Below are positions 35,401 to 64,000 of a stretch of 64,000 nucleotides of DNA, one piece after another. Position numbers and translations under genes: made by a program. The stretch covers positions 8,692-72,691 of the IMG/VR virus record IMGVR_UViG_3300022745_000026, one strand, 5' to 3'. The stretch's first letter is position 1. Each line of letters starts with the position of its first letter. The notes beneath the pieces were generated by a model. That model did no database searches and was not told the origin of the DNA. It saw only the letters and a list, made by a program, of their open reading frames with translations. This DNA is from a virus.

Positions 35401-38400
35401 AATAACACCAGCCAGTTGGGCCCCGCCTGCTTGAGCAGCCATAGTGGCCGACTGCAGGGTAGCAGTGTTGGTCATACCTGCGCCGAACTCGCCCAACAAC
35501 TGGTTAGCCCCCTCACCCAAGCCAAGGGAGCTGGTGATGCTGGCTGACTTGTCCATCAAAAAGTTACCTACACTAGCACCTACGTTCATGCTGCCTGTCA
35601 GCTTGTCGTACAGGCCGCTCAGACTAGCGAGTATGGTTGAACCTGGACCACCTAGACCACCCAGAGCACCGGGTCCGCCCAATCCGCTGAGGAACCCTGT
35701 ACCACTGAAAGCGGGGCCGCCCATCATAGAGCTGAACATGGCTTGCATGTTCACCTTGATCGGCTTGCTAAGCTCATCTTCCAAGACCTTCTTCAGGTTC
35801 TTAGCGCTCTCTTCGCCGCCGGCGGTAAGACCACCGATTACAGCGTCAGCCAAGGACCCTGCCAGCTTGTCGCGCTCGGAGTTGGCCAAGATTGTTTTTG
35901 CGGTTTCCGCTGCGCGTTGTGTGATTCCGGCAGCCTTCTCGCCTTTTAGTTTATCCATCTCCGACCGGAGCGCTGCGATTTGAGCGTTGTACTTTTCCAT
36001 CAGCTCGGTGGCAGCGGTGATGGGCACACCACTATCCATTTGGGATGCAATCAAGGCGTCCAAGTTCGCTTGGGCCTCCTTCAGGTTGGGCACCAGCTTG
36101 TCGTACTGGTCATTCAAGGCTTCCTGTGCGGCTGCTGAAGCCTTTACACCTGCAGCGTAGGATGGGTCAGCGTAGCGTAGAGACTCGTCAAGCGCAGCGG
36201 CTGCGGCGGCCTTGACTTGGGCCTTGTCCTGTGCGTCCCAGAATTCTTGGGAGGTCTTCTTCAGGTCGTGCAGGGCCTTACCGACTTTGATGACTTCAGA
36301 CTCTATCAGGCGGAAGGTTGCGCTGGCTGCTTTAGCCTTCTCGGCGGAGATTTTCTCGAAGAAAGATTCGGCAGAGTTCTGGGCGCTGGAAATCTTAGTT
36401 TCCATATCCTTGACTGCCTTAGCCACTTCCTCTGATGTAGCTTGTGGGTTTGATTTTTTCCACTTATCAGTGGCTGACACGATGTTCAGAATACTGGTGG
36501 CATAGGCATCAGAGTAGGTCTTTGCATCATGCTCAAGTAGCGCAGTCTTCTCGTCAGAGAATGCCCGAGTCATAGCTAGAAGTTCAGCAAAATACTGCCC
36601 TTCTGTAATCATCTCTGCGTCCCGCTTCACCTTTAGGATTGCCAGCTTATCTGACTCTAATTTATCGAATAGGGCAAGCGCTGTTGTGTGACGCTTAGTC
36701 AGCTCAGTCAGGGTATTGTCTTGGGTGAGGTCAAGGGCAACCTTATGTGGCTTAGCCTTGCCGGCTTTAGCATCAAAAATATCTTCTTCAGAGCCTTGGA
36801 TTCCACGACGCTTAGTTTTAGATTCCGCCAAGTCGAAAGAGGCTATCTGCTTCTTGATTTGAAATAGCCTATTAGTGTCTGTAATAGTCTTTATCACGTC
36901 AGTGGACTGCTGCTGACGGATTTTTACCAACCTAGACTCCAATTCAGCTTGAGCTGTGGCATGTGCCATCTCTGGGTCATACATACTGTTACGTATAAAG
37001 TACAACTCAGACTCGGCGGCCAGCAAGCGCTCGATACCGGCCAGTTGGCGGTAGTATTCGTCAACCCGGCGCACAGCGGCTTCACCATAGGCCTTATCAG
37101 CAGCCTGACTGGCTGTCAGACCGTCTTTGCGGGCCTTCAAGGCAGACTCAGAGGCGGCCAGTTCGCTGGTAAGGCTCTCATTAAACAGGTTCATCTTCGC
37201 TTTGATGGCGGCAGACGATTCTTGCAGACCCTTCAGAGTTTTGGCGTCTTGCTTCTCCAGCGCTTCCTGAGCGCTCTCACCAGCAAAAATCCACTTGACA
37301 GCCAGAGCGCCGACGGCGGCAGTGGCGGCAATCACACCCAAAGTAACTGCTGCTATCCCGGCAACGAGCGCCCCCGTGGCCAAGGCTGACCCGGCAGCCA
37401 GTATTCCGGGGGCCAGAAGCTCTAAAGACATAGCCACGCCTGCAATACTGGAGCGCAGGGCTGCCATCACAGTGGACCCTACAGCCACCTCAGCCATGAA
37501 CGCTGTAGTTGCTGCCCGAACTGCGACGAATCCGGTAAGCAGTGCCGTCAGGGCTTCCTGGCCAAACAGTATGTAAGCTCCAGCTACGCCAAGCATTGCT
37601 TCCTTGTGCTCCCAAGCGTATTTAGTAGCGTCTACGAAGGCTAGACCCACGTTGACGGTTCCCTTGACCAAGTTCGCTAGGCCTGTCTGGAAACTGTCAC
37701 TGCTGAAGGTCTGGTGCAGTTGGTCAGCAAACACCATCAGGGAGTCAGACACAGAGCCAAACGCCTTGACTAGGCCAGTCTCTAAGGAGGCTTTCAGCGC
37801 ATCCAAGGACCCTTGAGGGGTCAGGCGCTTCTCAGCTGAAATGATAAAGTTCTTTCCGGCGGCGTTCTCAGTAGACTCTTTGCTCTTGGCTGCCATGATG
37901 TCGAATGCTTCGTTCACCGCCCTCACTCGGACGGCTGCAGCTTCAGCCTTCTTACCCTTGGCTTCAAGGGCCTCAGCCTCCTTGAGGTGCTCAGGAACCA
38001 TAGACTTCATGGTCTCCAAAGCCTTGGCTTGGGCAGCTGCAAAGGTCTTAGAGCCCCGCTCGTTAGACAGGCCTGCGAAGTAGCTGTCCTGTGAGGCCTT
38101 GGTCTTATTGATGGTGGCCAAGGTCAATTCACGGAATATCTCGATGGTGGGCTTGAGTTCACCGTCAGCCTCTCCGCCTATCTGGCGAATGTTAACTTTT
38201 AGCTGCTTCAGTGCCTCAGCTACTTTACCGCTGGTCTTAGTGATCTCAGTATAGAAATTACGATAGCTGGTACCTGCTGCTGAGCCTGTAATACCGATCT
38301 GTGCCAGTGAGCCCAAGCCTTCAGCAGTGTCAGCCAGAGATAGGTTAAAGTGCTGAGCTACTACAGAGGCAGTCTTAAACGCTTCAGCCATATCAGACAC

Positions 38401-40458
38401 CGAAGCGATAGTATCAGAGGCGGTCTTAGTTATGATGTCCTGTAAAGTCTCATACTGCTTTGCAGTGAACCCATAGGCTTGGCCGACGGCGACGGTGACT
38501 TCTGCAGCCTTTTGCATAGCCACGCCCCCCGCTGAGGCAAACCGCATCGTAGGCTCAAGAGCAGCCATTGCGTCGGCGGCGTTCAAGCCGGCCAGGGAGA
38601 GGACCTCAAGTCCCTTGGCAGCTTCCAGCGGACCGTACATACCCTTGTTACCCAACTCCAGCAGGCGGTCACGCAGCATAGCCATGTCTGCAGCCGAAGT
38701 GCCAGCTACTTCAGAGATACCAAACAGGGTGGTCTCAAACTCCTTGCCTGACTTGATAGCCCCCATCAAGCTGAAGGACACCGCAGCACCCGCCAGCAGC
38801 GGTAGGGTGTTACCCCAAGTGAGCCATAGGGCTCCGAAGCCCGATGCCAAGCCTCGTACGCTGGAGTGTAGGTTGTTACCGGATAGCGAGAGTTTCTCGA
38901 AGCTTCCAGCCAAGGCCTCTGCCTCTTTGGCATGAGACGGTAGGTTCAGGGCTGGGAGAGCCTCGGCAATTGGCTTGAGCGGGGCGACACGCATCGCGTT
39001 GTACGGTGTGTAGGAGCCGACAACCTCGTTGCCGCCCAAGCGTTGGCCAGTGTTACCTATGTTTGCAGCTTTTTGAGCCGCCAACTGGGCCTCCCACCAA
39101 GCTGCCCCTGCTGGTTTGTAGCCTTCCATTGTAGAAGCCTTCATAACTCGGGCTGTGGTCTTTTCTAGGGCTGCAACTTCCTTCAGGAGCCCAGCCTCAT
39201 ACCTCTGCATAGCCCCCTGCTGAGTAGCCAACTGGGACTCCCACCAAGCAGGCCCTGCAGGTTTGTAGCCTTCCAATGTGGAGGCCTTCATAACTCGGGC
39301 TGTGGTCTTTTCTAGGGCTGCAACTTCCTTCAGGAGCCCAGCCTCATACCTCTGTGCGGCCTCCTGCTGAGTCGCCAACTGCGACTCCCACCAAGCAGGC
39401 CCTGCAGGTTTGTAGCCTTCCAATGTGGAGGCCTTCATAACTCGGGCTGCAGCCCTGTCCAGCACGGCAGCATCCTTAGCAGCAGCCTCTACCCGAGCCA
39501 GCTCTACCTTCTTGGCGGCCAACCTGATAGCTTCTGCCTCTTTATCAGCCATAGTGCTGATAAGGGCTATCCGAGTCTCATCATGCTTGGCCAATACCAG
39601 CCCACTGCCTTGTATGCCTTGGCGAACAGTACCCACAAAGTCGGAGCCATACTTCTTGGTGGCCAGCTTCTCAGCGTCGGCAGACCCACTCTCTAGCATG
39701 CGCCGAATACTCTCGGAGCGCTTTTGAATGTTGGCCAGCATGGTGCTGGAGCCTTTTTCGCTAATCTGCTGTAAGGCCGTATTGGTGTCTGTCGCGTACT
39801 TGACATTCAGCGCCATATCTCGCTCGGCATCGGACATGCTTCTGCGGCGGGCAGCAAGCGCCTCCCGCTCGGCTTGGCGCTTCAAGCCCTCCACACGCTT
39901 GAACTCGGCAAGTTGAGCGGCCTGGAACCCGCCCAAGTTAACCCCTTGGCTCCGCCAAGCTGCCAGCTCTTCACCCTGCAACTGACCCATCACAGCTAGT
40001 CGATGTTCGTAAGCAGACTTCAGTGCCGTGGTTTGCATATGCACCAAGTTGAGGGATAGCTTATTGCCGCTCTCAATCTCCTCAAGCATCAACTCTTGGG
40101 CGTGTTTGAAGCTCCCGGCAATTCCGGTCTTCTCCATGGACTTCATTGCTTCCGACATCCGACCAAGGCTGGACTTGGATGAGGTGCCTAGCTGTTCTAC
40201 TTTTGAGTCATAAGCCGCCGCAGACTTTATGAAGGAGCCGAAAGACTCCTCCTGAGCTTTTAAGTTCTTAGCGGTGCTGGGGGAGGCAAAGGCATGCGCG
40301 AAATCCACACCAGCAGGAGCAGCAGTCTTTAGGGCGGTGGCGGCTTTGGTGGCCGTATCGCCAAGCTTGTCCAGGCTTTTATCCAGGCGGTCGAGCTTAA
40401 CCAGGTCTCCCTCGGGGATATTAACGCCTATCTCAAGTTTGTCATTGCCTTCGCTCAT
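32434..40458 (-). CDS. tail tape measure protein
   Basis: 2674 aa, Ala-rich helical, TP901-like core (GPLEAAKGLEVLSLAG), hydrophobic segments, C-terminal FATGG..VGENGPEL; follows chaperones. Confidence 0.93.
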   Translation of the reverse strand: MSEGNDKLEIGVNIPEGDLVKLDRLDKSLDKLGDTATKAATALKTAAPAGVDFAHAFASPSTAKNLKAQEESFGSFIKSAAAYDSKVEQLGTSSKSSLGRMSEAMKSMEKTGIAGSFKHAQELMLEEIESGNKLSLNLVHMQTTALKSAYEHRLAVMGQLQGEELAAWRSQGVNLGGFQAAQLAEFKRVEGLKRQAEREALAARRRSMSDAERDMALNVKYATDTNTALQQISEKGSSTMLANIQKRSESIRRMLESGSADAEKLATKKYGSDFVGTVRQGIQGSGLVLAKHDETRIALISTMADKEAEAIRLAAKKVELARVEAAAKDAAVLDRAAARVMKASTLEGYKPAGPAWWESQLATQQEAAQRYEAGLLKEVAALEKTTARVMKASTLEGYKPAGPAWWESQLATQQGAMQRYEAGLLKEVAALEKTTARVMKASTMEGYKPAGAAWWEAQLAAQKAANIGNTGQRLGGNEVVGSYTPYNAMRVAPLKPIAEALPALNLPSHAKEAEALAGSFEKLSLSGNNLHSSVRGLASGFGALWLTWGNTLPLLAGAAVSFSLMGAIKSGKEFETTLFGISEVAGTSAADMAMLRDRLLELGNKGMYGPLEAAKGLEVLSLAGLNAADAMAALEPTMRFASAGGVAMQKAAEVTVAVGQAYGFTAKQYETLQDIITKTASDTIASVSDMAEAFKTASVVAQHFNLSLADTAEGLGSLAQIGITGSAAGTSYRNFYTEITKTSGKVAEALKQLKVNIRQIGGEADGELKPTIEIFRELTLATINKTKASQDSYFAGLSNERGSKTFAAAQAKALETMKSMVPEHLKEAEALEAKGKKAEAAAVRVRAVNEAFDIMAAKSKESTENAAGKNFIISAEKRLTPQGSLDALKASLETGLVKAFGSVSDSLMVFADQLHQTFSSDSFQTGLANLVKGTVNVGLAFVDATKYAWEHKEAMLGVAGAYILFGQEALTALLTGFVAVRAATTAFMAEVAVGSTVMAALRSSIAGVAMSLELLAPGILAAGSALATGALVAGIAAVTLGVIAATAAVGALAVKWIFAGESAQEALEKQDAKTLKGLQESSAAIKAKMNLFNESLTSELAASESALKARKDGLTASQAADKAYGEAAVRRVDEYYRQLAGIERLLAAESELYFIRNSMYDPEMAHATAQAELESRLVKIRQQQSTDVIKTITDTNRLFQIKKQIASFDLAESKTKRRGIQGSEEDIFDAKAGKAKPHKVALDLTQDNTLTELTKRHTTALALFDKLESDKLAILKVKRDAEMITEGQYFAELLAMTRAFSDEKTALLEHDAKTYSDAYATSILNIVSATDKWKKSNPQATSEEVAKAVKDMETKISSAQNSAESFFEKISAEKAKAASATFRLIESEVIKVGKALHDLKKTSQEFWDAQDKAQVKAAAAAALDESLRYADPSYAAGVKASAAAQEALNDQYDKLVPNLKEAQANLDALIASQMDSGVPITAATELMEKYNAQIAALRSEMDKLKGEKAAGITQRAAETAKTILANSERDKLAGSLADAVIGGLTAGGEESAKNLKKVLEDELSKPIKVNMQAMFSSMMGGPAFSGTGFLSGLGGPGALGGLGGPGSTILASLSGLYDKLTGSMNVGASVGNFLMDKSASITSSLGLGEGANQLLGEFGAGMTNTATLQSATMAAQAGGAQLAGVIAGSVMNGVSGYGLSKALSGGFKIDGLNIDAIAGIASMIPGIGPVAGVIGGLVSRAFGHGETQVREQGTRGTFSSSGFSGQNYANMYQQGGWFTSDRTWTETSAIDAGIAKRWTTAFEGVKTAAADSAKAMGLSTDSITNYSKSIDLAAGATSDTVLAVFTGMADELALKLVPNIAGMALEGESARETLARLASGMSTVNNWLTATHHALFAVSISGAAAAAELIKAHGGLDKFIASSQAFYDTYYTSGEKVADSQTKMRKALALLGYALPSTNAGFRALVEGLDLNTEAGRTAHAVLLNLAPEFATTAEALKTLADEASKAAVTASEAILKAVTGSQRDVVQSLGLVTSSLTLLSSTAATPVVSSLAAATAASAAMSNELLFMNSIMGDSASSVLAFKAQIPPLTSGFTDSQQAAYRLQQQIYSLSIAADSANIDFTKLSAALASVNTETFMVTVTKVFEDLAGRIGKVLGDISSERIAVRDAAIGIIAPESMSKSQIESRIASVQSGAPSNSGVLSTAANFNTLTTQLAAANARITAAQAAADTAQANATRYTTATSNYGNAYFDYTNKYSAVAKAQDVVNATPSRAMRDVGDWWNRSSEAYTPQSYIDAVNALTSAQAALKDSEAKMYSAQALRNQIITELGGNGQGALTAANQNLVAETTTRDALQAQVTSAQAVAKAAVLAYQKAMQDFVNSASTSVTQLAKLKDETVKYYESQKALADLLAKSAAGIRETIRSYKFSQMTDVQKAEDLKSQFAQATLLAQSATGEGLAAAGDKVNSLINPLIEALQATGQDSLVSKVLADSESVAALVDKNILAMGDYKSESLALLDMIDKKLLALGASTGSAQDVIAAAVAAGSDKTASGLRAVIAAILGQSIPAFATGGFHTGGLRLVGENGPELEATGPSRIYNAAQTQSLLDGTGGSNTAQLEALIAQQAEIMRQQSRQLENMSYELRAIAGSTGYTSAVLKKVTQGGESLQTTEVPAT
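39078..39450 (-). repeat. 147-bp (49-aa) tandem repeat, about 2.5 copies, inside tape measure gene
   Basis: TCATAACTCGGGCTG at 39141, 39288, 39435; ARVMKAST(L/M)EGYKPAG(P/A)AWWE x3. Confidence 0.9.
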
Positions 40459-44970: not shown

Positions 44971-45804
44971 TCAACCTCGACGGATGTGCAGGCTCCAAGC
45001 ATCTTGGTCTGAGACTATGGCAATAATTCTCCAACTCTCAGAATTAACCACTACGTTTTGACCGACTACTGGGCTAACTGACGACTTAGCAACAATCAAC
45101 GCCATGTCACCAGCCAAGTTGCTTGGGCTTGCTTGCGTGCGAAACTCATAGACCTTGTAGTAGTCCAAGAGGATTGACGGCACCGTCACGCTGGCAGCGC
45201 TGTAAGTGTCGAGCACGGGATTGTACACGCCAGTGCTGGTGAAGGTGGAGGAAATTACGCCGTAATCAATTTCGTCGCATTGAGCTGTCTTGAAGCCTTC
45301 CAAGGACAGGTGGACCGTGCGTACACGGTAGAGGGTTGGGCCCTGCTTAACCAAGGTCCCTTTTGCGATTACTGCATTCTTGCTGAAGTGGAAAATCCAG
45401 AATGGGTCATACTGGGCGTCAGTGACGCCGTTCACAGTGTCCTTCAGGTAATCCCGCTGCCCATGCTGTGCGGTAACTACGGTGCCGGAGCATGCTTGGC
45501 CAGGTGTGACAAGGCTGAATAGCCCGCTGCTTGCCTTCATCCAGTAAGACGCTCGGATAGCCCCTCCCCGCCACTCATCCAGTATTCCATCACCAACTAC
45601 CCACATCTCATTCAGTACGTTGATTGTGGAATGCGTGGGAGTGGTGATGGATGGGTCAACGCTCAGTACCCGGCGCTTAGCTGTACTGCCGTCGGGCGAG
45701 GCCTCTAGGAAGGTTGACACCTGTGCCTTGAACAGCAGAGCATTGTTGTAGGCATCGTACACCTGGCAGGTGTCAAATCGGCGGGCAGCAGCCTTTAATT
45801 TCAT
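44971..45804 (-). CDS. head closure / head-tail joining protein
   Basis: Synteny; C-terminal GVYNP...WRII pattern. Confidence 0.55.
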   Translation of the reverse strand: MKLKAAARRFDTCQVYDAYNNALLFKAQVSTFLEASPDGSTAKRRVLSVDPSITTPTHSTINVLNEMWVVGDGILDEWRGGAIRASYWMKASSGLFSLVTPGQACSGTVVTAQHGQRDYLKDTVNGVTDAQYDPFWIFHFSKNAVIAKGTLVKQGPTLYRVRTVHLSLEGFKTAQCDEIDYGVISSTFTSTGVYNPVLDTYSAASVTVPSILLDYYKVYEFRTQASPSNLAGDMALIVAKSSVSPVVGQNVVVNSESWRIIAIVSDQDAWSLHIRRG

Positions 45805-46289
45805 GCTGTCACCGGGTCTTTGGCCAGGCCTGCAGCCACTGTGAATATTGGCGTGATACTCTGGGGAGGGGTGTAGCCGTTCAAGAGGGTAAGGGAGGCT
45901 TGTAGCCGTGCCCGAATGCTGACATACCCTGCATTCACCCCGTTGCGGACAGTCTCGAAGGGGTCTGCAAAGCGCTCAAATGAGGCCCGACCGTCTGTAA
46001 CCTTTAGGGGGCTGAATAGGGGCAGGGAGGTGAGCAGTAACTTGCTGTAGGCATAGGCAGAAAACATGTTTGCTACTGCGAACACCTTGGTCTGCAGGGC
46101 TGTCCGGGACATGACAGGGGTGGCCAAGATGGAGTCCAGGAGTGCCGGCAAGGTCGAGTCTATGTCCGACAGCTCAAGTTCCAGTTGGTCGGTGAAGACC
46201 TTTAGGTCAAGTGTAGCGTCTTCGAGTTCTTCGTCGGAAACTCCAAGGACCGCTCGAACTTCATCTGGGGTGGTGCGTGTTAGGGCCAT
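45801..46289 (-). CDS. head-tail adaptor protein
   Basis: TTPDEVRAVLGVSDEEL; first joining gene after capsid. Confidence 0.6.
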   Translation of the reverse strand: MALTRTTPDEVRAVLGVSDEELEDATLDLKVFTDQLELELSDIDSTLPALLDSILATPVMSRTALQTKVFAVANMFSAYAYSKLLLTSLPLFSPLKVTDGRASFERFADPFETVRNGVNAGYVSIRARLQASLTLLNGYTPPQSITPIFTVAAGLAKDPVTA

Positions 46290-46359
46290 GCGTCGATTAT
46301 GGGCGGCTTTGTAGTTTTTGGGTGCTTAGGTGGTGGAAGATGGCAGTTTGTGATATACT

Positions 46360-46470
46360 GGCTTCAACAGCTTCTGAATACCTGTAGGAAGGGTAGAATT
46401 CAAAAGCTGTTAAAGGCCTACCGCCTGTGCTTTCGTGTTCCTACCACGGAGGTGCAGGCGGTTTTCTTTT
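46360..46470 (+). ncRNA. structured leader with two hairpins and complementary 7-nt loops
   Basis: TGATATACT extended -10 at 46351-46359; loop GTAGGAA (46384-46390) complements loop TTCCTAC (46438-46444); 18-bp stem with 4 G-U pairs then T run. Confidence 0.65.
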
Positions 46471-46480
46471 GGAGATTGAG

Positions 46481-46975
46481 ATGAAGAAGAGACCGATTCG
46501 GATTGAAGGTGACGTGGCTTATGTGACCTTAGCTTGTGGGGCGGAAGCAATCATAGACGCAGAAGACGCTGAGCTGGTGGGTCAGTATAATTGGAGCCTA
46601 TGCACTGGGTATGCAGCTACAAGCCTATACCCTGTCGGAGAGAAACGTAGAAGCATAAAACTGCATCGACTTGTTATGGGGGAACCTGAAGGTTTTGAAG
46701 TAGATCACAAGTACGGCATCAGGCTGGATAACAGAAAAGCACATTTGAGGCTGGCCACAAGATCAGATAATAACCATAATGCCAAGGTCCGTCGTGACAA
46801 TACCTCCGGTAGGAAAGGCGTTTCGTGGCATAAAAAAGTTAAAAAGTGGTTCGCCCAAATAATGTATATGGGCAAACAAAAGCATTTAGGCTACTTTTCC
46901 GACCCTGACGCTGCCTATGAGGCCTACTGCCAAGCAGCACTTAAATACCATGGCGAATTTGCCAGAACAGAATAA
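46481..46975 (+). CDS. HNH-AP2 homing endonuclease, antisense to the structural operon
   Basis: KLHRLV..VDH..LDNRK..LR (HNH); NTSGRKGVSW..KW.A.I..HLG.F..AY (AP2); GGAG RBS. Confidence 0.92.
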   Translation: MKKRPIRIEGDVAYVTLACGAEAIIDAEDAELVGQYNWSLCTGYAATSLYPVGEKRRSIKLHRLVMGEPEGFEVDHKYGIRLDNRKAHLRLATRSDNNHNAKVRRDNTSGRKGVSWHKKVKKWFAQIMYMGKQKHLGYFSDPDAAYEAYCQAALKYHGEFARTE

Positions 46976-46976
46976 T

Positions 46977-47001
46977 AAAATGGCCCTAAAAGGGCCATTT
47001 T
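46977..47001. terminator. bidirectional terminator
   Basis: AAAATGGCCCT-AAA-AGGGCCATTTT between convergent genes. Confidence 0.75.
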
Positions 47002-47192
47002 TACTTTTTAGGCTTACTCTCGTCTGGGTCCACCCATCTCTGGATGACGGGCTGGCCTTTGACCCAGTCCGTCTCCTTGGCTTTAGTTGGTACCCGTGGT
47101 TCAAAGCGGCAACCGCTTTCTGGGTCTACAAACGGAAATCCAGCTGTGTTGATTAACCAGGTGCCTGTCTTGTCGTGGATGGTTTGATTCAT
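47001..47192 (-). CDS. small hypothetical protein
   Basis: 63-aa ORF right after the capsid gene. Confidence 0.5.
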   Translation of the reverse strand: MNQTIHDKTGTWLINTAGFPFVDPESGCRFEPRVPTKAKETDWVKGQPVIQRWVDPDESKPKK

Positions 47193-47232
47193 AGGTATTC
47201 AGGGGAGACTTTCGCCTCCCCTGTTATTTTAA

Positions 47233-48447
47233 TTAGCTGATTGTCAGCACATCAAAAGGACGCAGATCGCTGTCGCCTAATGAGCGGAACACTTCCTCAG
47301 CCCAGTCAAGGCGCATAGCTGTACTGCGCTTCATGGCGTAAGCCTCAACAGCAGTGTAAGCTGCTGCAGTGTTGGTAACACGAGAGATAGCTACCGACGC
47401 ATCCAAGGCATACACCGTGTTAGCTGGCACTGGGCCACCTTCAGCAGCGGAGTCAACCAAGAAGATGCGAACGTCGTTGCCAAAGCCTACGTTAATCAAG
47501 CCTGCTTGTGGGTCTACACGAGTCAGAGTTGGGTCGTAGTTATTTGAGCCTGGACGACCTGTGCGGCCCTCAATTTTCAAATACGTGTCTAGGTCCATCA
47601 CTAAATGACTGATCTTTCGGTATTTACGGCTCCTGGCCAAAAACTTGACAAAGGCTTTGTGAGTCAGAACGCCACCTGTAGCTGCTGCATCCAGAGATGT
47701 AGAAGTCACTGCAGCAACTGCACCTACGTTCAGGTCACCATCTCCGTTGTACAGAGCATTGATATAGCGGTAAACCCGCTCGTCACGCTCGATCTGCAGG
47801 TAGTGAGCTACGGTACGAGTGACATAATCTATGTTCGTATTGCGCAGAGCAGCATCAGTCCACTCCATGCCGATATTCCAAGCGCCAATGCGACGGATAC
47901 GGTCGCTGGTCTTGAAGAACAGCATCTTGGGTGGTTCAGCGCCTTGAGCAACGCGAGCTGCTTTAGAGTCCTCTGGGCCGCCAAGTGTTTTGTAGTCCAC
48001 TACGGGCTGTTCAAAATGCTCCGTGTCAACACTGATGTTGTTGGCAATCATTTGCTCAAACACGCCAGAGTCGGTAGTGCGGTCTTTTTGCATTTCGGAA
48101 GTGATCTCACCAATAACAGCGATGTTCACAAATGCGCGAGAAGCAGTGCCGAAGGGGCTTGCGTTTTGCTGGGTGTTGGCAGAGAAGCCGGAAGAGCCTG
48201 CAGAGCCGTCCAACAGAGCACCAATTTTGGTGGCACGGAAGCCGAATGGGTTATTGCTGCCAGGGCGAACCAGGCCGATGGACGCTTTGAACTGGTCAAA
48301 AGCAGTACCAACGGACAGGTCTGCATCAGCAAACTTACGGTTCATCTCAGCGATTGGGTCGCCGGACTTCACCATTGCCACTAATTCTTCAGCACTGGGT
48401 GCCCACTGTTGTGTTCCGCCCGAGCGGTCGATGTATGCAACTTGCAT
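47233..48447 (-). CDS. major capsid protein
   Basis: About 404 aa from MQVAY after GAAAGGA RBS; follows protease and decoration genes; downstream hairpin. Confidence 0.8.
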   Translation of the reverse strand: MQVAYIDRSGGTQQWAPSAEELVAMVKSGDPIAEMNRKFADADLSVGTAFDQFKASIGLVRPGSNNPFGFRATKIGALLDGSAGSSGFSANTQQNASPFGTASRAFVNIAVIGEITSEMQKDRTTDSGVFEQMIANNISVDTEHFEQPVVDYKTLGGPEDSKAARVAQGAEPPKMLFFKTSDRIRRIGAWNIGMEWTDAALRNTNIDYVTRTVAHYLQIERDERVYRYINALYNGDGDLNVGAVAAVTSTSLDAAATGGVLTHKAFVKFLARSRKYRKISHLVMDLDTYLKIEGRTGRPGSNNYDPTLTRVDPQAGLINVGFGNDVRIFLVDSAAEGGPVPANTVYALDASVAISRVTNTAAAYTAVEAYAMKRSTAMRLDWAEEVFRSLGDSDLRPFDVLTIS

Positions 48448-48469
48448 GTTAGTTCCTTTCAATATTTGA

Positions 48470-48946
48470 TTAGTCGCGGCCAATGACACCAACAGTGCCT
48501 ACTGCGCCGGTGCCTACTGGGCCCAAGCTCAGAACACGCCACAGATACTGTTGAGTACCTTGCGAAGTTGCCTTGCAGACTTTGGGATAAGTTGTGAGGG
48601 CAGTGCCTTTTGGTACTTGAGTACCAGCAACAACCCAGTCACCAACGGAAATAACGCCGACGCCGGGGGTAGCTTGCAAGCCGTCAAAAGTCACGCGAGC
48701 GCGACCTTCGCAATAGACCGAGCCGATGGAGTAGCCGTTTTGAGGGGCCATTTCCACTGCATAGATCAGGGCTTCAATGTTATCGCCAGCCACAGCCAGG
48801 TCATAACGGGACTCACCTGCGAGTTTGACGATCTTGCCAACCTCTTTGGTGTCTACTTGGTTGCTAGTACCCGAACCTGCGCCCAGACGTACAGCCATGG
48901 CCGCTTCGTCTGGTGCTGTTGGGGAGATGAAATGGTCGAGAGCCAT
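48470..48946 (-). CDS. head decoration protein
   Basis: 158-aa Gly/Val-rich ORF between protease and capsid. Confidence 0.6.
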   Translation of the reverse strand: MALDHFISPTAPDEAAMAVRLGAGSGTSNQVDTKEVGKIVKLAGESRYDLAVAGDNIEALIYAVEMAPQNGYSIGSVYCEGRARVTFDGLQATPGVGVISVGDWVVAGTQVPKGTALTTYPKVCKATSQGTQQYLWRVLSLGPVGTGAVGTVGVIGRD

Positions 48947-48958: not shown

Positions 48959-50332
48959 TTACTTTGATTGAGAAGATTTCACCGCATGCACGAATAATGG
49001 GTTCACCAGTGCAGCTACGGGCTTATCCGATACTGCGTCTGATTTGGCTGCGGTAACACCACCCACCTTGAATTTGGATTTGAACAACTCGCTCACTCTG
49101 CTGTGTTCTGCCATGACTTCAGAGTCAGCGACGGCAGCTACATCCAAGTTTAGTGGTACGCTCATAGCCTTGATGCTGCTGCGTGCGAAAGCCAGAAGCC
49201 CAACATGAGAAGCCTCTAAGGCAGTCATCTGTGCTTTGATGGTTTCGGACTCAGCGATAGCTGCATCATGAGCCAACTTTGCTGACACGAGTTCAGCTTG
49301 CAGGCTTTCGATTGTAGGCTCAAGAGATTCAGCTGCTGCAGCCACTACGGTCTCAGTGACGACAGTAGCAGTAGCGGCCACAGCAGATTCTGTAACTTCT
49401 TCTAGGTCAATACCAGCAGCCAGTGCTGCAAGGTATTCTGGGGTAATCGGTTTAGGCATAGTTGCTCCTTCTTGCGCCTGATTATCGTCCTGTACTTCAG
49501 CAACTAAGGTAGGCTTAGTGCGAACTGCGGGTTTATTGGCAGAAGATTTCAAGGATTTTGCGTAGATGAAGGCGTCAGTGAGGGACCCAAGGCTGTCTAT
49601 CAGCCCCGCGTTCACTGCTTGCTTGCCTACAAACTCTTTCCCTTGGCCGAAGGCTGCATCTGCAGCAGTCAAGCTCATGCCACGGCTATCGGCCACATGG
49701 GTCAGGAACACATCATAAAGTGCGTTTGCTTTTGCCTGTGCATCGGCCAAGGCTTTATCTGTCAGGTCCTCATAAGGGTTCATCAGGGCTTTGTCTGTAC
49801 CTGCACGGATTACGGTGACCTTGATACCGTCATTGGCCAACTGTCGGGCCCGACTTGCATGCACCATCAGCACCCCAAGTGAGCCAGTGATAGAGGTCTC
49901 GCTTGCATACATCTTGCTGGCGCTAGACCCGAGCCACAGGGCTGCCGAGGCCATAGTACCACCTGTGTACGTGACTACAGGTTTGATCTTGTTCACTTCT
50001 GAGATCAGCTTAGCTGCGTCATTCACGCCCGCGACTGCACCGCCACCGGAGTCAATGTTCAGAAGGATGCTGTTTACAGACTTGTCAGCCACTGCCTGTA
50101 GGATTGCATCCTGAATGTCAGTGTACCCCACAATCCCAAACATACGCATGAAGCCTGCCGAGCCAGATACCAAGCTGCCTTCAATGTTAATCATGGCTAC
50201 ACCGTCCTGCACATCAACCATAGATGGCAGGCCATAAGGGTCAGTGGGCTTGGACTCGACTTTGGCAGCCTCAAAAGCATCGTAAGATGCTTGGGTGCCC
50301 AACCAGATATTTTCAAACATTAAGGTCTCCAT
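48959..50332 (-). CDS. S49 (SppA-like) prohead protease with C-terminal scaffold region
   Basis: IDSGGG, MASAALW, GSLGV, AGLID; acidic Ala-rich C-terminus with internal RBS (GAAGGAG) before MPKP. Confidence 0.9.
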   Translation of the reverse strand: METLMFENIWLGTQASYDAFEAAKVESKPTDPYGLPSMVDVQDGVAMINIEGSLVSGSAGFMRMFGIVGYTDIQDAILQAVADKSVNSILLNIDSGGGAVAGVNDAAKLISEVNKIKPVVTYTGGTMASAALWLGSSASKMYASETSITGSLGVLMVHASRARQLANDGIKVTVIRAGTDKALMNPYEDLTDKALADAQAKANALYDVFLTHVADSRGMSLTAADAAFGQGKEFVGKQAVNAGLIDSLGSLTDAFIYAKSLKSSANKPAVRTKPTLVAEVQDDNQAQEGATMPKPITPEYLAALAAGIDLEEVTESAVAATATVVTETVVAAAAESLEPTIESLQAELVSAKLAHDAAIAESETIKAQMTALEASHVGLLAFARSSIKAMSVPLNLDVAAVADSEVMAEHSRVSELFKSKFKVGGVTAAKSDAVSDKPVAALVNPLFVHAVKSSQSK

Positions 50333-57786: not shown

Positions 57787-59256
57787 CTACGGCTTCGCTG
57801 GCGGACCCTTTGGCTTCGTAGGGGTCTTTGGTGTGAGGGTCTTCTCTACCGCTGAGGTACCGCTTGTAGGATTGGCAACAGGCGCTGCAGCCGCCGTACT
57901 GCGGAATAAAGTGCCGCTCTTAGGTGTGTAACCTGCAGGAGGCAACTGACCCGTCAACTTCAAGCAGGCCTCCTCATCGGAAATCATGCCCAACGATAGC
58001 AAGTCCAGGATGCGGGACTGCTCCATTGACCTGAAAGCCTCCAACTCTTTGGAGGGGCGTAGGTCAAGTTCCTCATAGGCAAACTCTACGTACCCGTCTA
58101 TACCCATGATGCGAATAGCTACCGTCAGTGCTCGGCTATAAGTCTCATTGAGCTTTCGGCGCAGCATATCCGCAGACTTCAGGTACAACAACGACTCTGT
58201 AGAACTGGCATTGGCCGAACTGCCAAACCCAAGGGCCACTGGCAGTGTCTTCACCCCAGACACCAACTTGGCATTCAGCACCTTCTGCACCTGCTCCAAG
58301 ATTTGACCCGGTTGGTGGCCGCCATCCAAGTAGGAATAATTGACCATATCAAAGGACACAAGCGCATCCTCTGGATTCAGCCCGTTAACTGTGGTCTGTA
58401 CTGCTGCAATCACCGAGTTCTGGTACTCCGCCCACTTCACAGGGTCAGCCAGAATTTCTGGAGGAGTCATCTTCTTCATCTTCTCGCTATCAATACTGGC
58501 AGACAGGCGCGGAAGAATAGCCCGCTTGAGGGTCCTACTCATGTCCTGATCGAACTCAATATCAGCGATAATGCTCTTAATAGAGGACTCAAGGGGAGAA
58601 GTAGGGTGCAACTTGGACGAACTTTGGTCAACACTGGTGTAGATAATCGTAGGTAAATCTAAATCAATCTCTGTACCCCCAATGCGCTGCTTGATCTTAA
58701 ATGAATTCTCTTCTTCATAGAAAATCAGGGTGGGAATCGCAATCACGTTGAAACTTGCTGGAACCCGTGCCTTATCCAAGGCCACTTCCAGGCAGTGTGC
58801 CCCCTCCAGCAACAGGTCTCTGGCCAAGGTCTCTGACAAGCTCTGCAGCCCCTGCTGTACACCCATACTGCCGTCTGCATTACCGAGGTAAGTCAAGCGC
58901 CGCAGCAACTCGTGCGCCAAGGCTGTTGCCGCTGGGTCCACTTGTCCGTCCAAGTTGCGCCCCACCACTGTGAAATTCTCTGGAATACCTGTGCGAATGG
59001 CAAGGTAAATGGCCGCAGACATCTCCCCGGACTGCACACTAGCCTCTTGCAGCACTTGGGAAGTCGTAGAGCGGCTACGCAGGTCAACCAAGCGGTCAAG
59101 ACTGCGTAAATTGCGGTCTTGGCGCGGCACTGCGCTAGTCGTCGGCGTGACATTGCGGCGATAACCTGGCAAGGCCTGCGGCGCATTAGGCGCTTTCGGC
59201 AGTGGTGGCGGTGTCAGTGTAGACGCTTGGAAAAATGACTTGATTGATTCAAACAT
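57787..59256 (-). CDS. portal protein
   Basis: About 489 aa from MFESIK; first large gene after terminase; helical; LGMISDEEA near C-terminus. Confidence 0.75.
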   Translation of the reverse strand: MFESIKSFFQASTLTPPPLPKAPNAPQALPGYRRNVTPTTSAVPRQDRNLRSLDRLVDLRSRSTTSQVLQEASVQSGEMSAAIYLAIRTGIPENFTVVGRNLDGQVDPAATALAHELLRRLTYLGNADGSMGVQQGLQSLSETLARDLLLEGAHCLEVALDKARVPASFNVIAIPTLIFYEEENSFKIKQRIGGTEIDLDLPTIIYTSVDQSSSKLHPTSPLESSIKSIIADIEFDQDMSRTLKRAILPRLSASIDSEKMKKMTPPEILADPVKWAEYQNSVIAAVQTTVNGLNPEDALVSFDMVNYSYLDGGHQPGQILEQVQKVLNAKLVSGVKTLPVALGFGSSANASSTESLLYLKSADMLRRKLNETYSRALTVAIRIMGIDGYVEFAYEELDLRPSKELEAFRSMEQSRILDLLSLGMISDEEACLKLTGQLPPAGYTPKSGTLFRSTAAAAPVANPTSGTSAVEKTLTPKTPTKPKGPPAKP

Positions 59257-60044
59257 AGGGGCTCCGGGGTTTGGGCCGATTCTAACAGAGGTGCTTGGAA
59301 ATCTTCGGATTCTAGGGCTCGTGGGATGGTCCAGCTGTAGCGGTTGAGGCGCTGGTGGACTCGGCTGTACGGCAGGCCAGCAACCTCGCACGCTTCCGCG
59401 AGGCATATATTCTTGCCGATATACGAGACAAGTCGGTTGTTTCGCTTGTTCCGGCCTTGTTCTATTCGAGTCGCCCACACACAGTTCTGGGGGCTATACC
59501 CTAAGTTATTGTCTTCCCGTTCCAGCGTGAGTCCGGGCTTATGGCTAGGTGCCATGTCAGAAATAAGGTTTCGAATGTCATGCCACCTTTCGCAGACTCT
59601 GATTCCGCGACCACCCCAATCGGCAAACTGCTTATTCTCGGGGTTGTAGCAGCGGCTCATCATGTTGTGGTGTGTCGCATAGAGTGGGTGCTTTTCGAGC
59701 CCGTGAGTTGTACGTGCAGCCGCTGAAACCTCCCTACTGTAGCACCCACAACTCATGGTATTGCCTCGGCGCAGTTCATTCAACACAACCCGCCTCTCAA
59801 CACCACAATCACATTGACACAACCACCTGCGATTAGACTGGCTGCAACTTTGCCCAGCAACTTCCTCAACAAGCGTAAGCCTGCTATACTTGTCACTCGG
59901 AAGGTTCTTTTCCCTACCTTTTGGTGCTGTTCTATCTGGAATTGGTGAAGAAAATTCTACGTCATGTGGAGCTCCATTTGAAAGTGGTAGGCCCAACGGT
60001 GAAAATTCCGCTGTGGCACGGTACATCAGGCCGTCCACTATCAA
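59214..60044 (-). CDS. HNH homing endonuclease (start uncertain, possibly frameshifted)
   Basis: WLCQCDCG, SCGC, WGGRGIRVCERW, TLEREDNNLGY.P.NC.WAT. Confidence 0.85.
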   Translation of the reverse strand: MIVDGLMYRATAEFSPLGLPLSNGAPHDVEFSSPIPDRTAPKGREKNLPSDKYSRLTLVEEVAGQSCSQSNRRWLCQCDCGVERRVVLNELRRGNTMSCGCYSREVSAAARTTHGLEKHPLYATHHNMMSRCYNPENKQFADWGGRGIRVCERWHDIRNLISDMAPSHKPGLTLEREDNNLGYSPQNCVWATRIEQGRNKRNNRLVSYIGKNICLAEACEVAGLPYSRVHQRLNRYSWTIPRALESEDFQAPLLESAQTPEPLCLNQSSHFSKRLH

Positions 60045-60086
60045 ATGAAGCTTCAGGCCACAGGTTTAGGCTTTTCACAGCCCTGC
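59966..60086 (-). ncRNA. structured leader with long stem and two predicted pseudoknot pairings
   Basis: TAGAAT -10 at 60091-60096; 18/20-bp stem 60035-60054 with 59968-59987; GTGAAA loop vs TTTCAC; CTGTGGC vs GCCACAG. Confidence 0.55.
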
Positions 60087-60102
60087 AAGAATTCTACCAC
60101 AA

Positions 60103-62409: not shown

Positions 62410-62487
62410 GTTGGGGTTCTTGTTGGTGTCATTGTGGCAGCATTGTACAGGGTTTGGGGGAAATGGCAGGTTTGGGTGGAGGGGGCG

Positions 62488-62545
62488 TTTTGTTGGGCCG
62501 TTTTGTTGGGCCGTTTTTGTTGGGCCGTTTTTGTTGGGCCGTTTT
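62488..62545. repeat. four tandem copies of T4-5-GTTGGGCCG
   Basis: Read directly; non-coding, upstream of packaging genes. Confidence 0.9.
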
Positions 62546-62816
62546 GGCAGAAAAATTGGCGAATTTTTGAGGGGCCTGGACTGGCGAGGCCGCCTTCCTG
62601 GTTTATAAGTGGTGTACGTCGCCTAACATGAAAACCCCACAACGTCAACATTTATTTTGTTGCATAAAACGACCTGGCAGAGACCAGACGCTGGTGAAGC
62701 CTAAAATGCAAAATAAAATTAAATTTATCCCTAAAACATAAAATTCTCATGTAAAATCTCTATCAGGGTTCAAAATTAGACTTACTAATTACCCCAGGCG
62801 CCTATGGTGCCATTTT

Positions 62817-63512
62817 ATGAAAAGGTTTGCTATGTCCACAGTTTCCGTTTCCGTTTCCGTTCTCGCCACTATCTCCAATGTGACGGCTGCACAGCTTGAC
62901 GCGGCCAATGCCACTATTAAAAAAGCGGGTGGCACGCAACAAGCTCTAAGCGCGTATCTACGCACCGGACAAAAAACACACGCTACGACGGGCGCTCTAG
63001 CGTACGTGTGGAATGGCGTCCGCGAATTGCTGGCTGATGGTCAAAAAAGCAAGCTTCAAGGCTTTTCCCTTGCATCAAAAAAAGATAGTGCAGCATTAGA
63101 TACCCTGCGCAATCTCGGTATCGTGAGCGAATCCGGCGCTGTGATTGTTGGTGTCGAGCCCACCTTCAAGGGTAGCAAAGACGATAAGGATTGGAGCGAG
63201 AAATTCCCCCAGTTTTTGGCGCTGGTGCAAGCCAATGAGGCGGTCATTGCAGCGAAAAAAGCCCCCGTCAAAAAAGCCACCACCACCGAAGCCACCACCA
63301 CCGAAGCCACCACCACCGAAGCCACCACCACCGAAGCCACCACCACCGAAGCCCCAAAAACTCCCGGACAAATTGACGACGATACTACTGCCCACATCAT
63401 CGCCCGAATCAATGCCGGCATGTTATCTAATGACAACATCAAGGCGCTATTGGCAGTGTTAGCCCCTCATGGCGTAAAACCCGCACCGAAAAAACAAGCT
63501 GTAAACGCCTAA
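62817..63512 (+). CDS. hypothetical protein with ATTTE repeats; first gene of a divergent unit
   Basis: 231-aa ORF after AT-rich promoter region (TAAAAT at 62752); start may be MSTVS after AAGG. Confidence 0.65.
   Translation: MKRFAMSTVSVSVSVLATISNVTAAQLDAANATIKKAGGTQQALSAYLRTGQKTHATTGALAYVWNGVRELLADGQKSKLQGFSLASKKDSAALDTLRNLGIVSESGAVIVGVEPTFKGSKDDKDWSEKFPQFLALVQANEAVIAAKKAPVKKATTTEATTTEATTTEATTTEATTTEAPKTPGQIDDDTTAHIIARINAGMLSNDNIKALLAVLAPHGVKPAPKKQAVNA
63276..63350 (+). repeat. 5 x 15-bp GCCACCACCACCGAA (ATTTE)
   Basis: Read directly. Confidence 0.95.
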
Positions 63513-63975: not shown

Positions 63976-64000
63976 ACGCACCAGAAAAATCAGCTTCATG

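What the first reader, a model, noticed from the sequence alone, without database searches (positions are those of the whole stretch)
46351..46975. HNH-AP2 nuclease preceded by a promoter-driven kissing-loop RNA
Seen: an extended -10 (TGATATACT, 46351-46359). Hairpin 1 pairs AACAGCTT/AAGCTGTT, TGAAT/ATTCA and ACCT/GGGT and presents loop GTAGGAA (46384-46390). Hairpin 2 (46420-46462) has 18 contiguous pairs, four of them G-U, so it folds well only as + strand RNA, and presents loop TTCCTAC, the exact reverse complement of loop 1. It is followed by TTTTCTTTT, GGAG and the ATG. The unit sits antisense inside the head operon and ends at its own terminator. Known: phage homing endonucleases can be held down by RBS-masking hairpins (T4 I-TevI), and some HNH nucleases travel with structured RNAs (HEARO/IscB). 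Inference: a ~110-nt terminated RNA that is either an attenuator switched by the loop-loop pair or an RNA partner of the nuclease. I do not recognise it as a described family.
Basis: partly seen in the sequence, partly recalled or inferred. Interest (0 to 1): 0.8.

Follow-up and report, generated by a model that had tools for sequence, protein, structure and literature searches.

The report
Kissing-loop leader RNA of homing-endonuclease cassette
A selfish DNA-cutting-enzyme gene in this freshwater phage carries its own promoter and a roughly 105-base folded RNA leader, whose two hairpin tips pair with each other and which ends in a transcription stop signal, so it most likely limits how much of the enzyme is made.

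Summary
At 46351-46480 (+) there is an extended -10 box, hairpin 1 (loop GTAGGAA), an 18-bp terminator hairpin 2 (loop TTCCTAC), a U-tract, GGAG and the ATG of a 164-aa HNH_3/AP2 nuclease.

One such loop match in 64 kb is about what chance gives. Comparison decides it. Relatives keep the two hairpins but change the loops in step: GTCGCAA/TTGCGAC, GAACAAG/CTTGTTC and TTGGCCG/CGGCCAA. In a 7-sequence structural alignment the loop-loop helix is paired in 49 of 49 cells, and 5 of its 7 pairs change on both sides. G-U pairs show that the + strand RNA is the folded species.

An empty site in a related phage shows that promoter, leader and gene form one 620-bp insert, 46347-46966. Close homologues without the leader exist, so it is not an obligatory RNA partner. 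There is no Rfam match.

A second leader of the same design (GUGAAA/UUUCAC) heads another HNH gene at about 60000 (-).

The likely role is attenuation of nuclease expression. Whether the loops pair within one RNA or between RNAs is open, and I found no expression data.

This scan has noted the same design in at least 43 other genomes. I did not check those notes.

The parts
46347..46966 (+). Inserted mobile cassette: promoter, leader and HNH-AP2 gene
   Evidence: The flanks match the empty site of relative L201 up to GGCAG (46346) on one side and from CAGAA (46967) on the other.
46351..46359 (+). Extended -10 promoter-like box TGATATACT
   Evidence: Read. TGnTAnnnT is present in 12 of 12 leaders examined, at a fixed distance before hairpin 1. 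The -35/-10 scan did not list it.
46366..46411 (+). Hairpin 1, with a conserved 3-nt bulge; loop GTAGGAA at 46384-46390
   Evidence: Fold. Helices 1 and 2 are 97.5% and 94.3% paired, and 8 of their 17 pairs change on both sides.
46384..46390 (+). Loop 1, the 5' partner of the 7-bp loop-loop (kissing) helix
   Evidence: 49 of 49 cells are Watson-Crick, and 5 of 7 pairs change on both sides.
46420..46462 (+). Hairpin 2, the stem of an intrinsic terminator: 18 bp with a G-U-rich middle; loop TTCCTAC at 46438-46444
   Evidence: Helix 4 is 97.6% paired, and 10 of its 18 pairs change on both sides.
46463..46470 (+). U-tract of the terminator (TTTCTTTT)
   Evidence: A U-rich tract follows hairpin 2 in all four loop classes.
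46471..46474 (+). Shine-Dalgarno GGAG, 6 nt before the ATG
   Evidence: It is conserved in the relatives.
46481..46975 (+). HNH_3/AP2 homing-endonuclease gene, 164 aa
   Evidence: The N-terminus aligns with homologues from M1. The 182-aa GTG ORF call runs through hairpin 2.
46977..47001 (.). Bidirectional terminator of the head operon; it was there before the insertion and is not part of the cassette
   Evidence: It is present at the empty site in L201.
59966..60099 (-). Second leader of the same design ('type B'). TGGTAGAAT at 60099-60091; hairpin-1 loop GUGAAA at 60078-60073; complement UUUCAC at 60004-59999, in the unpaired top of a long stem whose 3' arm covers the SD
   Evidence: Relatives L289 and L290 keep the loop pair.
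59217..59965 (-). Second leader-bearing HNH gene (phrog_374). Its ATG at 59965 is out of frame with the long ORF
   Evidence: L289 has one more base after ATGAC and is in frame.

Best explanation
This is the expression-control leader of a free-standing homing-endonuclease cassette.

A sigma-70-type extended -10 promoter starts transcription at about 46366, at the foot of hairpin 1. About 100 nt later a strong intrinsic terminator (hairpin 2 plus the U-tract) sits directly against the SD. By default, then, most transcripts should end as an RNA of about 105 nt, and only read-through transcripts encode the nuclease. The nuclease is thereby kept low.

The 7-nt apical loops of the two hairpins base-pair, and that pairing is under selection.

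My preferred mechanism follows the guanidine-IV riboswitch. The loop-loop helix forms once the upper half of hairpin 2 is made. With only an 8-nt linker, it then competes sterically with zipping of the lower half of the terminator. The pairing would therefore set, or let some factor set, the fraction of read-through.

Shown here: the structure, the loop covariation, the strand, and membership in the mobile cassette.

Inferred: promoter activity, termination, the effect of the loop pairing, and the steric argument.
For: - Fold and terminator.
- Four loop-pair classes lie upstream of close HNH-AP2 homologues. GTAGGAA/TTCCTAC: window, L001/L002, L089, L206. GTCGCAA/TTGCGAC: L003, L093. GAACAAG/CTTGTTC: L090. 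TTGGCCG/CGGCCAA: L092 and a second gene in L192.
- The complementarity stops exactly at the 7 loop bases in the window, L003 and L090, judged by eye.
- Alignment A9 was fitted to the nested structure only. On it the loop-loop helix is 100% paired (49 cells) and 5 of its 7 pairs change on both sides. The whole structure is 97.6% paired against 78.9% in shuffles (0 of 500 reach it) and 36-46% when partners are slid.
- Strand: 24 G-U cells against 5 A.C cells in the nested helices.
- Covariance model R2 scores the 7 distinct leaders at 65-124 bits. Nothing else in 184 sources exceeds 25.2 bits.
- Cassette: empty site in L201/L202. The leaders have at least 4 different upstream flanks. One leader heads a nuclease with a different N-terminal domain.
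- TGnTAnnnT is present in 12 of 12 leaders.
- Leaderless HNH genes mostly abut or overlap an upstream ORF: L004, L015/L091, L291/L292, phage Pam5, and the window's own 11202 and 17555. This fits a leader that serves stand-alone expression.
- The middle of hairpin 2 is weak or interrupted in every class (pairs 73-80). This fits two-step zipping.
- Precedent for a kissing loop competing with a growing terminator stem through linker strain: PMC11611296, passages read.
Against: - There are no transcript data for the leader. The one RNA run found holds a contig that covers only 47012-47100.
- The promoter is a consensus match only. The -35/-10 scan did not list it.
- Stepwise MFE folding shows no alternative antiterminator structure, so any switch rests wholly on the loop pairing, which 2D folding cannot score.
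- In class 4 and in type B the complement lies in an unpaired junction on top of the long stem, and hairpin 1 is short. There the pairing and the full stem may coexist.
- In type B the long stem covers the SD instead of ending in a clean U-tract, so the output may be translational there.
- L012 sits at the same insertion point with no leader at all.
- The host is unknown.
Confidence: 0.5

Rival explanations
1. The terminated RNA of about 105 nt is itself the functional product, and the loops pair between molecules. In the second case leader concentration, and hence phage genome copy number, feeds back on termination.
For: - Geometry (inference). Two stems of about 17-18 bp joined by an 8-nt linker cannot easily stack end to end through a 7-bp loop helix within one molecule. 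An antiparallel dimer needs no strain.
- Loops of 7 nt that pair over all 7 bases resemble the classical intermolecular kissing complexes (ColE1 RNA I/RNA II, recalled).
- Two leaders in one phage always carry different loop pairs: the window, G002 and G001.
- Precedent: covariation first read as tertiary turned out to be an intermolecular kissing loop in the phage RNA ROOL (bioRxiv 10.1101/2024.12.08.627333, passages).
Against: - Covariation cannot separate cis from trans.
- Different loops in one phage are expected by chance anyway.
- There is no evidence that the short RNA accumulates.
- Hairpin 1 has a conserved 3-nt bulge that could act as a hinge for pairing in cis.
Confidence: 0.25
2. 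The fold is static. The terminator only insulates or limits the gene at a fixed ratio. The loop-loop pairing merely compacts and stabilises the RNA, for example by protecting the 5' end against RNase E or exonucleases, and does no switching.
For: - Hairpin 1 starts at the predicted +1. 5'-terminal hairpins stabilising bacterial mRNAs is established knowledge (recalled).
- No alternative fold was found.
- T-even homing-endonuclease genes use plain hairpins and terminators (PMC2988022, passages).
Against: Keeping 7 of 7 Watson-Crick loop pairs through at least 6 compensated substitutions is strong selection for a merely stabilising contact. A plain terminator needs no partner hairpin.
Confidence: 0.12
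3. The two 7-bp words are inverted DNA half-sites for a protein. One candidate is the AP2 domain of the nuclease acting as an autorepressor, as I-TevI does at its operator.
For: - I-TevI autorepression through an operator over its promoter (PMC2988022, passages).
- The words form an inverted repeat in the DNA 51-57 bp apart.
Against: - The words always lie exactly in hairpin loops flanked by covarying stems. Those stems hold 24 G-U cells, which indicates RNA.
- The spacing of 51-57 bp is not helically phased.
- Loop class does not follow the protein. L089's AP2 region differs widely from the window's but its loops are the same. L003 and the L192 second gene have similar AP2 regions but different loops.
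Confidence: 0.05
4. The RNA is a bound cofactor or guide of the nuclease, as the HEARO/omega RNA is for IscB/IsrB.
For: The leader is co-inherited with the nuclease gene in one cassette.
Against: - Homologues 56-63% identical have no leader.
- The same leader precedes a nuclease with another N-terminal domain.
- The protein is a 164-aa HNH_3/AP2 homing endonuclease with its own DNA-binding domain.
- There is no Rfam HEARO match.
Confidence: 0.04

Closest known systems
Guanidine-IV riboswitch (mepA motif)
   Same: The loop of a 5' hairpin forms a kissing loop with the loop of a second hairpin that grows into an intrinsic terminator. The kissing loop and the full terminator compete, partly because the growing stem shortens the linker (PMC11611296, passages).
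   Different: - No Rfam match even at E up to 10 or at gathering score in relatives.
- The loops here are free to change as long as they stay complementary, so no conserved ligand pocket is visible.
- The pairing is 7 Watson-Crick pairs.
- It heads selfish nuclease genes, not guanidine exporters.
- There is no evidence of a ligand.
Regulatory hairpins and terminators of T-even homing-endonuclease genes (I-TevI/II/III, segB, mobE, segF, seg43(25))
   Same: Very stable RNA structures directly upstream of, or in the 5' part of, the nuclease gene restrict its expression. seg43(25) has a hairpin that ends just before an unsequestered RBS, as hairpin 2 does here. mobE and segF carry intrinsic terminators (PMC2988022, passages).
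   Different: - Those have no second hairpin and no loop-loop pairing.
- They rely on a late or middle promoter embedded in the hairpin. Here the promoter lies upstream of both hairpins, and I saw no conserved embedded promoter.
- Only the type-B leader covers the SD.
   Same: A phage-encoded RNA carries two mutually complementary loops that covary, and the covariation can reflect pairing between copies (bioRxiv 10.1101/2024.12.08.627333, passages).
   Different: The RNA here is much smaller. It always lies between a promoter and a nuclease gene. It ends in a terminator. It shows no link to packaging or cages, and oligomerisation is untested.
Promoter-proximal terminated leaders: lambda PR'-6S RNA-tR' (recalled); the greA leader GraL RNAs (PMC2836576, search listing only)
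   Same: A promoter is followed within about 100-200 nt by a terminator. A short RNA is the main product, and the gene depends on read-through.
   Different: No antiterminator protein or qut-like site was identified. The loop-loop pairing has no counterpart in those systems.
HEARO / IscB-IsrB omega RNA
   Same: A structured RNA lies next to an HNH-domain gene.
   Different: There is no sequence or structure match. The RNA is about 105 nt rather than about 300 nt. The protein is not IscB-like. Homologues work without the leader.

Membership tests
Intrinsic (Rho-independent) terminator | G+C-rich stem-loop followed at once by a U-rich tract on the transcribed strand | tested here: met
   18-bp stem with 10 G-C pairs, followed by TTTCTTTT. 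The same holds in classes 2-4.
Intrinsic (Rho-independent) terminator | Transcripts end there | not testable with these tools
   The one RNA run found covers only 47012-47100.
Sigma-70 extended -10 promoter | TGn immediately 5' of a TATAAT-like hexamer | tested here: met
   TGATATACT at 46351-46359. TGnTAnnnT is present in 12 of 12 leaders. There is no good -35, and the -35/-10 scan did not list the site. Activity was not tested.
Guanidine-IV riboswitch (mepA motif, Rfam) | Match to the family's covariance model, with its conserved loop nucleotides | tested here: not met
   No such hit at E up to 10 in 46000-47300, nor at gathering score in 7 related loci.
Guanidine-IV riboswitch (mepA motif, Rfam) | Kissing loop between a 5' hairpin and the terminator hairpin | tested here: met
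   Covarying 7-bp loop-loop helix. This is a likeness of design, not membership.
Guanidine-IV riboswitch (mepA motif, Rfam) | Lies upstream of guanidine-related genes (mepA-type exporters) | tested here: not met
   Downstream genes are HNH nucleases in all 9 type-A leader loci and all 3 type-B leader loci.
T-even type RBS-sequestering HEG hairpin with embedded promoter | The hairpin pairs over the Shine-Dalgarno sequence | tested here: not met
   In the leader of this finding, GGAG lies 3' of hairpin 2 and is at most marginally paired. The feature is met only in the second, type-B leader.
T-even type RBS-sequestering HEG hairpin with embedded promoter | A late or middle promoter inside the hairpin gives a shorter, open transcript | tested here: inconclusive
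   By eye I saw no conserved -10-like box inside the leaders of classes 1-3 (alignment). The phage's late-promoter motif is unknown.
HEARO / IscB omega RNA | Match to the Rfam HEARO model, and an IscB/IsrB-type protein | tested here: not met
   No hit. The protein is 164 aa, HNH_3 plus AP2.
phi29-type pRNA | Match to the Rfam pRNA model; a packaging role | tested here: not met
   No hit. The element travels with the nuclease gene to at least 4 different genomic sites.
Free-standing HNH homing-endonuclease cassette | HNH nuclease gene present or absent at the same site in otherwise collinear relatives | tested here: met
   L201/L202 are empty. The window, L001/L002, L206 and L012 are occupied at the same junction. 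Cleavage activity was not tested.

The most novel reading that the evidence does not exclude
The leader is a self-recognising RNA. Each homing-endonuclease cassette would then measure its own transcript or genome dosage with a private 7-nt 'address', and shut its nuclease off by a sense-RNA version of antisense attenuation. That would be a new regulatory principle for mobile elements.
Probability: 0.2. Interest if true: 0.85.

Novelty: new variant of a known kind. Interest (0 to 1): 0.7.

Why it matters
Homing endonucleases must be expressed without harming their phage. So far the known controls are plain hairpins, embedded promoters and autorepression in T4-type phages.

Here a compact promoter-leader-terminator module moves with the nuclease gene as one cassette. 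It carries a loop-loop pairing that evolution keeps while changing its letters freely.

That gives a small, experimentally tractable natural example of a kissing loop coupled to an intrinsic terminator with no evident ligand. It also provides sets of naturally different loop pairs (four here, plus the type-B pair), whose lack of cross-pairing is assumed and untested, that could serve as parts for RNA-based transcription control.

It matches no Rfam family, and my 6 paper searches did not find it. Notes of this scan suggest the design recurs in many phage groups.

Tried and rejected
**Searches that found nothing relevant**
- Rfam at E up to 10 on 46000-47300 gave only sub-threshold chance hits. 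At gathering score on 7 related loci it gave none.
- blastn of 45800-47300 against GenBank phages found no match.
- tblastn of the nuclease against GenBank phages: the best hit is Pseudanabaena phage Pam5 at 47%. Its gene overlaps the upstream CDS and has no leader.
- The genome-contig scan gave 16 loci, all at 44% identity or less, and none has a leader.
- A structure-aware DNA pattern for classes 1-3 in IMG/VR returned 6 stretches. Three were known. The three new ones (L298, L300, L301) have no R2 match, so they are chance.
- R1 on whole related records found only one copy per record in G001 and G005. The loose first look missed G002, although L003 lies in it.

**Scans for the design elsewhere**
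- I scanned the upstream windows of 255 HNH loci for a closed 7-nt loop with its complement downstream. There were 18 hits, where about 12 are expected from the overall rate of 337 per 1.58 Mb. Four of the 18 are the known leaders.
- I folded four others (L224, L269, L245, L065). They show no such design.

**Expression**
- One metatranscriptome run (X14) held 7% of the sampled words. Its contig covers only 47012-47100. The DNA runs X4-X6 hold partial contigs. This gives no information on the leader.

**Alignment and folding**
- MAFFT alignments A3 and A6 put loop 1 of class 1 one column off from the other classes, so I did not use them for counts.
- Alignments A5 and A7 contain minus-strand and chance rows, so I did not use them either.
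- Stepwise folding found no alternative antiterminator.

**Unresolved**
- The class-5 leader of L005-L007/L014 has hairpin-1 loop UUGGAG and a later CUCCAG, which would give 5 Watson-Crick pairs and 1 G-U. I left it as a candidate only.

**Not seen**
- The supplementary tables of PMC10690425 list candidate structured RNAs of IMG/VR with their downstream genes and might include this motif. Supplements are closed, and the main text does not mention HNH.
- Protein look-alikes with N-terminal extensions (P0002, P0014, P0016, P0024, P0030, P0032, P0035) suggest more leaders. I could not fetch their DNA.
Full report
**1. What is in the sequence**

The window is bases 8692-72691 of a 72.7-kb virus record that CheckV rates as complete. 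Its best DNA holders are freshwater metagenome runs. Early genes run on the + strand to about 21.3 kb. The structural genes run on the - strand from about 61.8 kb down to 21.7 kb. They include the large terminase at 60103-61776, the protease at 48959-50332, the major head protein at 47233-48492 and a head-closure protein at 44971-45804.

The finding lies between the major-head-protein region and a 162-aa gene (45801-46289, -), on the opposite strand.
- TGATATACT at 46351-46359.
- Hairpin 1 at 46366-46411, with loop GTAGGAA at 46384-46390.
- Hairpin 2 at 46420-46462: 18 contiguous pairs, 4 of them G-U, with loop TTCCTAC at 46438-46444.
- TTTCTTTT, then GGAG at 46471-46474, then ATG at 46481.

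The ORF 46481-46975 encodes 164 aa with HNH_3 above Pfam's cut-off and AP2 just below it. It matches phrog_99, HNH endonuclease, at 3e-43.

The + strand RNA folds into exactly these two hairpins at -50.7 kcal/mol, z -6.3. The terminator scan lists hairpin 2 as a + strand site.

**2. Is it more than chance?**

On its own, no. A crude scan for two closed 7-nt loops that are exact complements within 150 nt finds this site and nothing else in the window. It also finds 11 unrelated pairs in the 1.17 Mb scanned, so about one per window is expected. The - strand also folds well, z -5.6. The case rests on comparison with relatives.

**3. Relatives**

Protein-guided scans of IMG/VR, JGI/ENA metagenomes and GTDB genomes gave about 180 HNH-AP2 loci. 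Leaders like the window's occur only next to the closest homologues, at about 59-93% identity. They fall into four loop classes.

| Class | Loop 1 / loop 2 | Loci |
|---|---|---|
| 1 | GTAGGAA / TTCCTAC | window, L001/L002, L089, L206 |
| 2 | GTCGCAA / TTGCGAC | L003, L093 |
| 3 | GAACAAG / CTTGTTC | L090 |
| 4 | TTGGCCG / CGGCCAA | L092, and a second HNH gene on the L003 contig |

In class 4 the complement sits in a 7-nt joiner between two small hairpins on top of the terminator stem, and hairpin 1 is only 7 bp. By eye, in the window, L003 and L090 the complementarity ends exactly at the loop borders.

**4. Formal test**

I built a covariance model from the class-1 sequences (R1). It found classes 2 and 3. 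I rebuilt the model from those matches (R2).

R2 scores the leaders at 65-124 bits. There are 8 matches and 7 distinct leaders, because L192 repeats L003. Nothing else exceeds 25.2 bits in 100 sources, and there was no match at all in 84 more.

The clean 7-row alignment A9 is fitted to the nested helices only, so the loop-loop helix is an independent test. Results:
- The loop-loop helix is paired in 100% of 49 cells, and 5 of its 7 pairs change on both sides.
- The whole structure is 97.6% paired, against 78.9% in column shuffles (0 of 500 reach it) and 36-46% with partners slid by 1-3 columns.
- 23 of 42 pairs change on both sides.

Caveats: there are only three independent classes in the alignment, class-1 rows are close kin, and the nested part of the alignment leans towards the model.

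The strand is settled by the wobble pairs. The nested helices hold 207 Watson-Crick, 24 G-U, 5 A.C and 2 other cells. The + strand RNA therefore pairs in 231 of 238 cells, while its complement would pair in only 212. All 49 loop-loop cells are Watson-Crick.

**5. It belongs to the mobile cassette**

Relatives of the neighbouring 162-aa gene include L201/L202, where the site is empty. There the order is major head protein, a hairpin, a 67-aa ORF, a bidirectional terminator and then, directly, the sequence that in the window follows 46346. The window's insert is therefore 46347-46966, which is exactly promoter box, leader and nuclease gene. The terminator at 46977-47001 was already there.

- L206 has a class-1 leader at the same site, with many compensated stem changes. 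It heads a 237-aa nuclease with a different, cysteine-rich N-terminal domain.
- L012 has a 60%-identical nuclease at the same junction with no leader.
- Leader-bearing cassettes have at least four different upstream flanks.
- Each related record searched holds only one copy of this leader.

**6. A second leader in the window**

I checked it. On the - strand, TGGTAGAAT (60099-60091) is followed by a hairpin with loop GUGAAA (60078-60073). Then comes a long stem whose unpaired top carries UUUCAC (60004-59999) and whose 3' arm pairs over the GGAG.

Relatives L289 and L290 keep GUGAAA/UUUCAC, although L290's long stem has a different sequence. L291 and L292 have no leader and overlap an upstream ORF.

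All 12 leaders examined have TGnTAnnnT just upstream.

The window's two other HNH genes, at 11202 and 17555 (phrog_374), abut or overlap upstream ORFs and have no leader. Leaders thus go with stand-alone cassettes. Leaderless genes are mostly coupled to a gene in front, with L012 the exception.

**7. How it probably works**

Shown: a conserved RNA fold on the sense strand, a canonical terminator against the SD, selected loop-loop pairing, and co-mobility with the nuclease gene.

Inferred: transcription starts about 7 nt after the -10 box, at the foot of hairpin 1, and most transcripts stop at the U-tract as an RNA of about 105 nt. Read-through makes the nuclease mRNA.

Stepwise folding gives no alternative antiterminator, so any modulation must come from the loop pairing. 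Its duplex free energy is -6.5 to -10.9 kcal/mol.

My preferred model borrows from the guanidine-IV riboswitch, where a kissing loop and the growing terminator stem compete because the stem shortens the linker (PMC11611296, passages). Here the linker is 8 nt. The middle of hairpin 2 is G-U-rich or interrupted in every class (pairs 73-80). The loop helix could therefore form on the upper half and hinder zipping of the lower half. This steric argument is my own estimate, not a computation.

The main rival is pairing between molecules. An antiparallel dimer needs no strain. In the phage RNA ROOL, covariation first read as tertiary proved to be intermolecular. I cannot separate the two readings with these tools.

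Two readings are unlikely:
- The RNA-partner reading, because close homologues lack the leader.
- The DNA half-site reading, because the words always lie in loops of G-U-containing covarying stems, their spacing of 51-57 bp is not phased, and loop class does not follow the AP2 sequence.

**8. Against what is known**

There is no Rfam match.

I ran six paper searches. They covered homing endonuclease with kissing and terminator; mobE and Aeh1; kissing loop with intrinsic terminator and leader; loop-loop attenuation; HNH with structured RNA and covariation; and guanidine-IV. None found a description of this leader.

The T4-group review describes RBS-sequestering hairpins with embedded promoters, terminators in mobE and segF, a hairpin just before an open RBS in seg43(25), and I-TevI autorepression (PMC2988022, passages). 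It describes nothing with a partner hairpin.

The survey of structured RNAs in IMG/VR does not mention HNH in its main text. I could not see its supplements.

Notes of this scan report the same design in front of HNH, GIY-YIG, LAGLIDADG and TnpB genes in at least 43 other genomes. Those are unchecked AI notes. Within my own 255 HNH loci the design is not enriched beyond the family described here.

**9. Verdict**

I class it as a new variant of a known kind, namely leader control of homing-endonuclease genes and terminators governed by a kissing loop. Interest 0.7.

Noticed in passing
window 59950-60100 (-): A second promoter-leader unit of the same design (loop GUGAAA, complement UUUCAC) lies ahead of a phrog_374 HNH gene just downstream of the large terminase. 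Here the long stem covers the SD instead of ending in a clean U-tract.
   Followed up: yes
window 59955-59965 (-): The ATG behind that leader reads ATG ACG TAG, out of frame with the long ORF 59214-60044. Relative L289 has one more base (ATG ACA GTA GAA ...) and is in frame. The window's copy therefore has a 1-nt frameshift at codons 2-3, or a sequencing error.
   Followed up: partly
window 46481-46540 versus L003 3001-3060: The first 60 nt or so of the nuclease ORF are nearly identical between the window and L003, although the proteins are only 62% identical overall and the leaders belong to different loop classes. This suggests mosaic recombination within the cassettes.
   Followed up: no
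L012 1440-1500 (same junction as window 46346/46347): A 60%-identical HNH-AP2 gene sits at exactly the same insertion point, with only a 16-nt 5' region and no promoter box or hairpins. It may be a deletion derivative, since short GGCAGTTT/GGCGGTTTT repeats flank the window's leader. How it is transcribed is unclear.
   Followed up: partly
L192 (contig of L003), genes starting at 4665 and 8640 (-): One 46-kb phage contig carries two HNH-AP2 cassettes with different loop pairs (GTCGCAA/TTGCGAC and TTGGCCG/CGGCCAA).
   Followed up: yes
L005-L007/L014, about 140 nt upstream of the HNH start: Another structured leader lies behind TGGTATAAA at the terminase-downstream site. Its hairpin loop is UUGGAG, and a later CUCCAG lies inside a long stem that reaches the start codon. 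It is a possible further variant of the design, with a G-U in the loop pairing.
   Followed up: partly
window 47200-47223: A G+C-rich hairpin lies immediately after the major-head-protein gene. It is conserved with sequence changes at the same place in L201, and is probably an attenuator that sets head-protein stoichiometry.
   Followed up: no
window 62475-62556, 63244-63363, 63772-63999: Three arrays of short tandem repeats lie near the divergent region between the late and early genes: 13-14-nt TTTTGTTGGGCCG units, 15-nt units, and at least 13 copies of the 12-nt GTGGCTCTGCCC. They are iteron- or origin-like, or may be coding repeats.
   Followed up: no
window 39074-39514: Three tandem 147-nt repeats (100/90/68% identity) lie inside the 2674-aa ORF 32434-40458 (-).
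   Followed up: no
window 11202-11903 and 17555-18274 (+): Two further phrog_374 HNH genes are embedded in early operons without leaders. The phage carries four HNH genes in all.
   Followed up: partly
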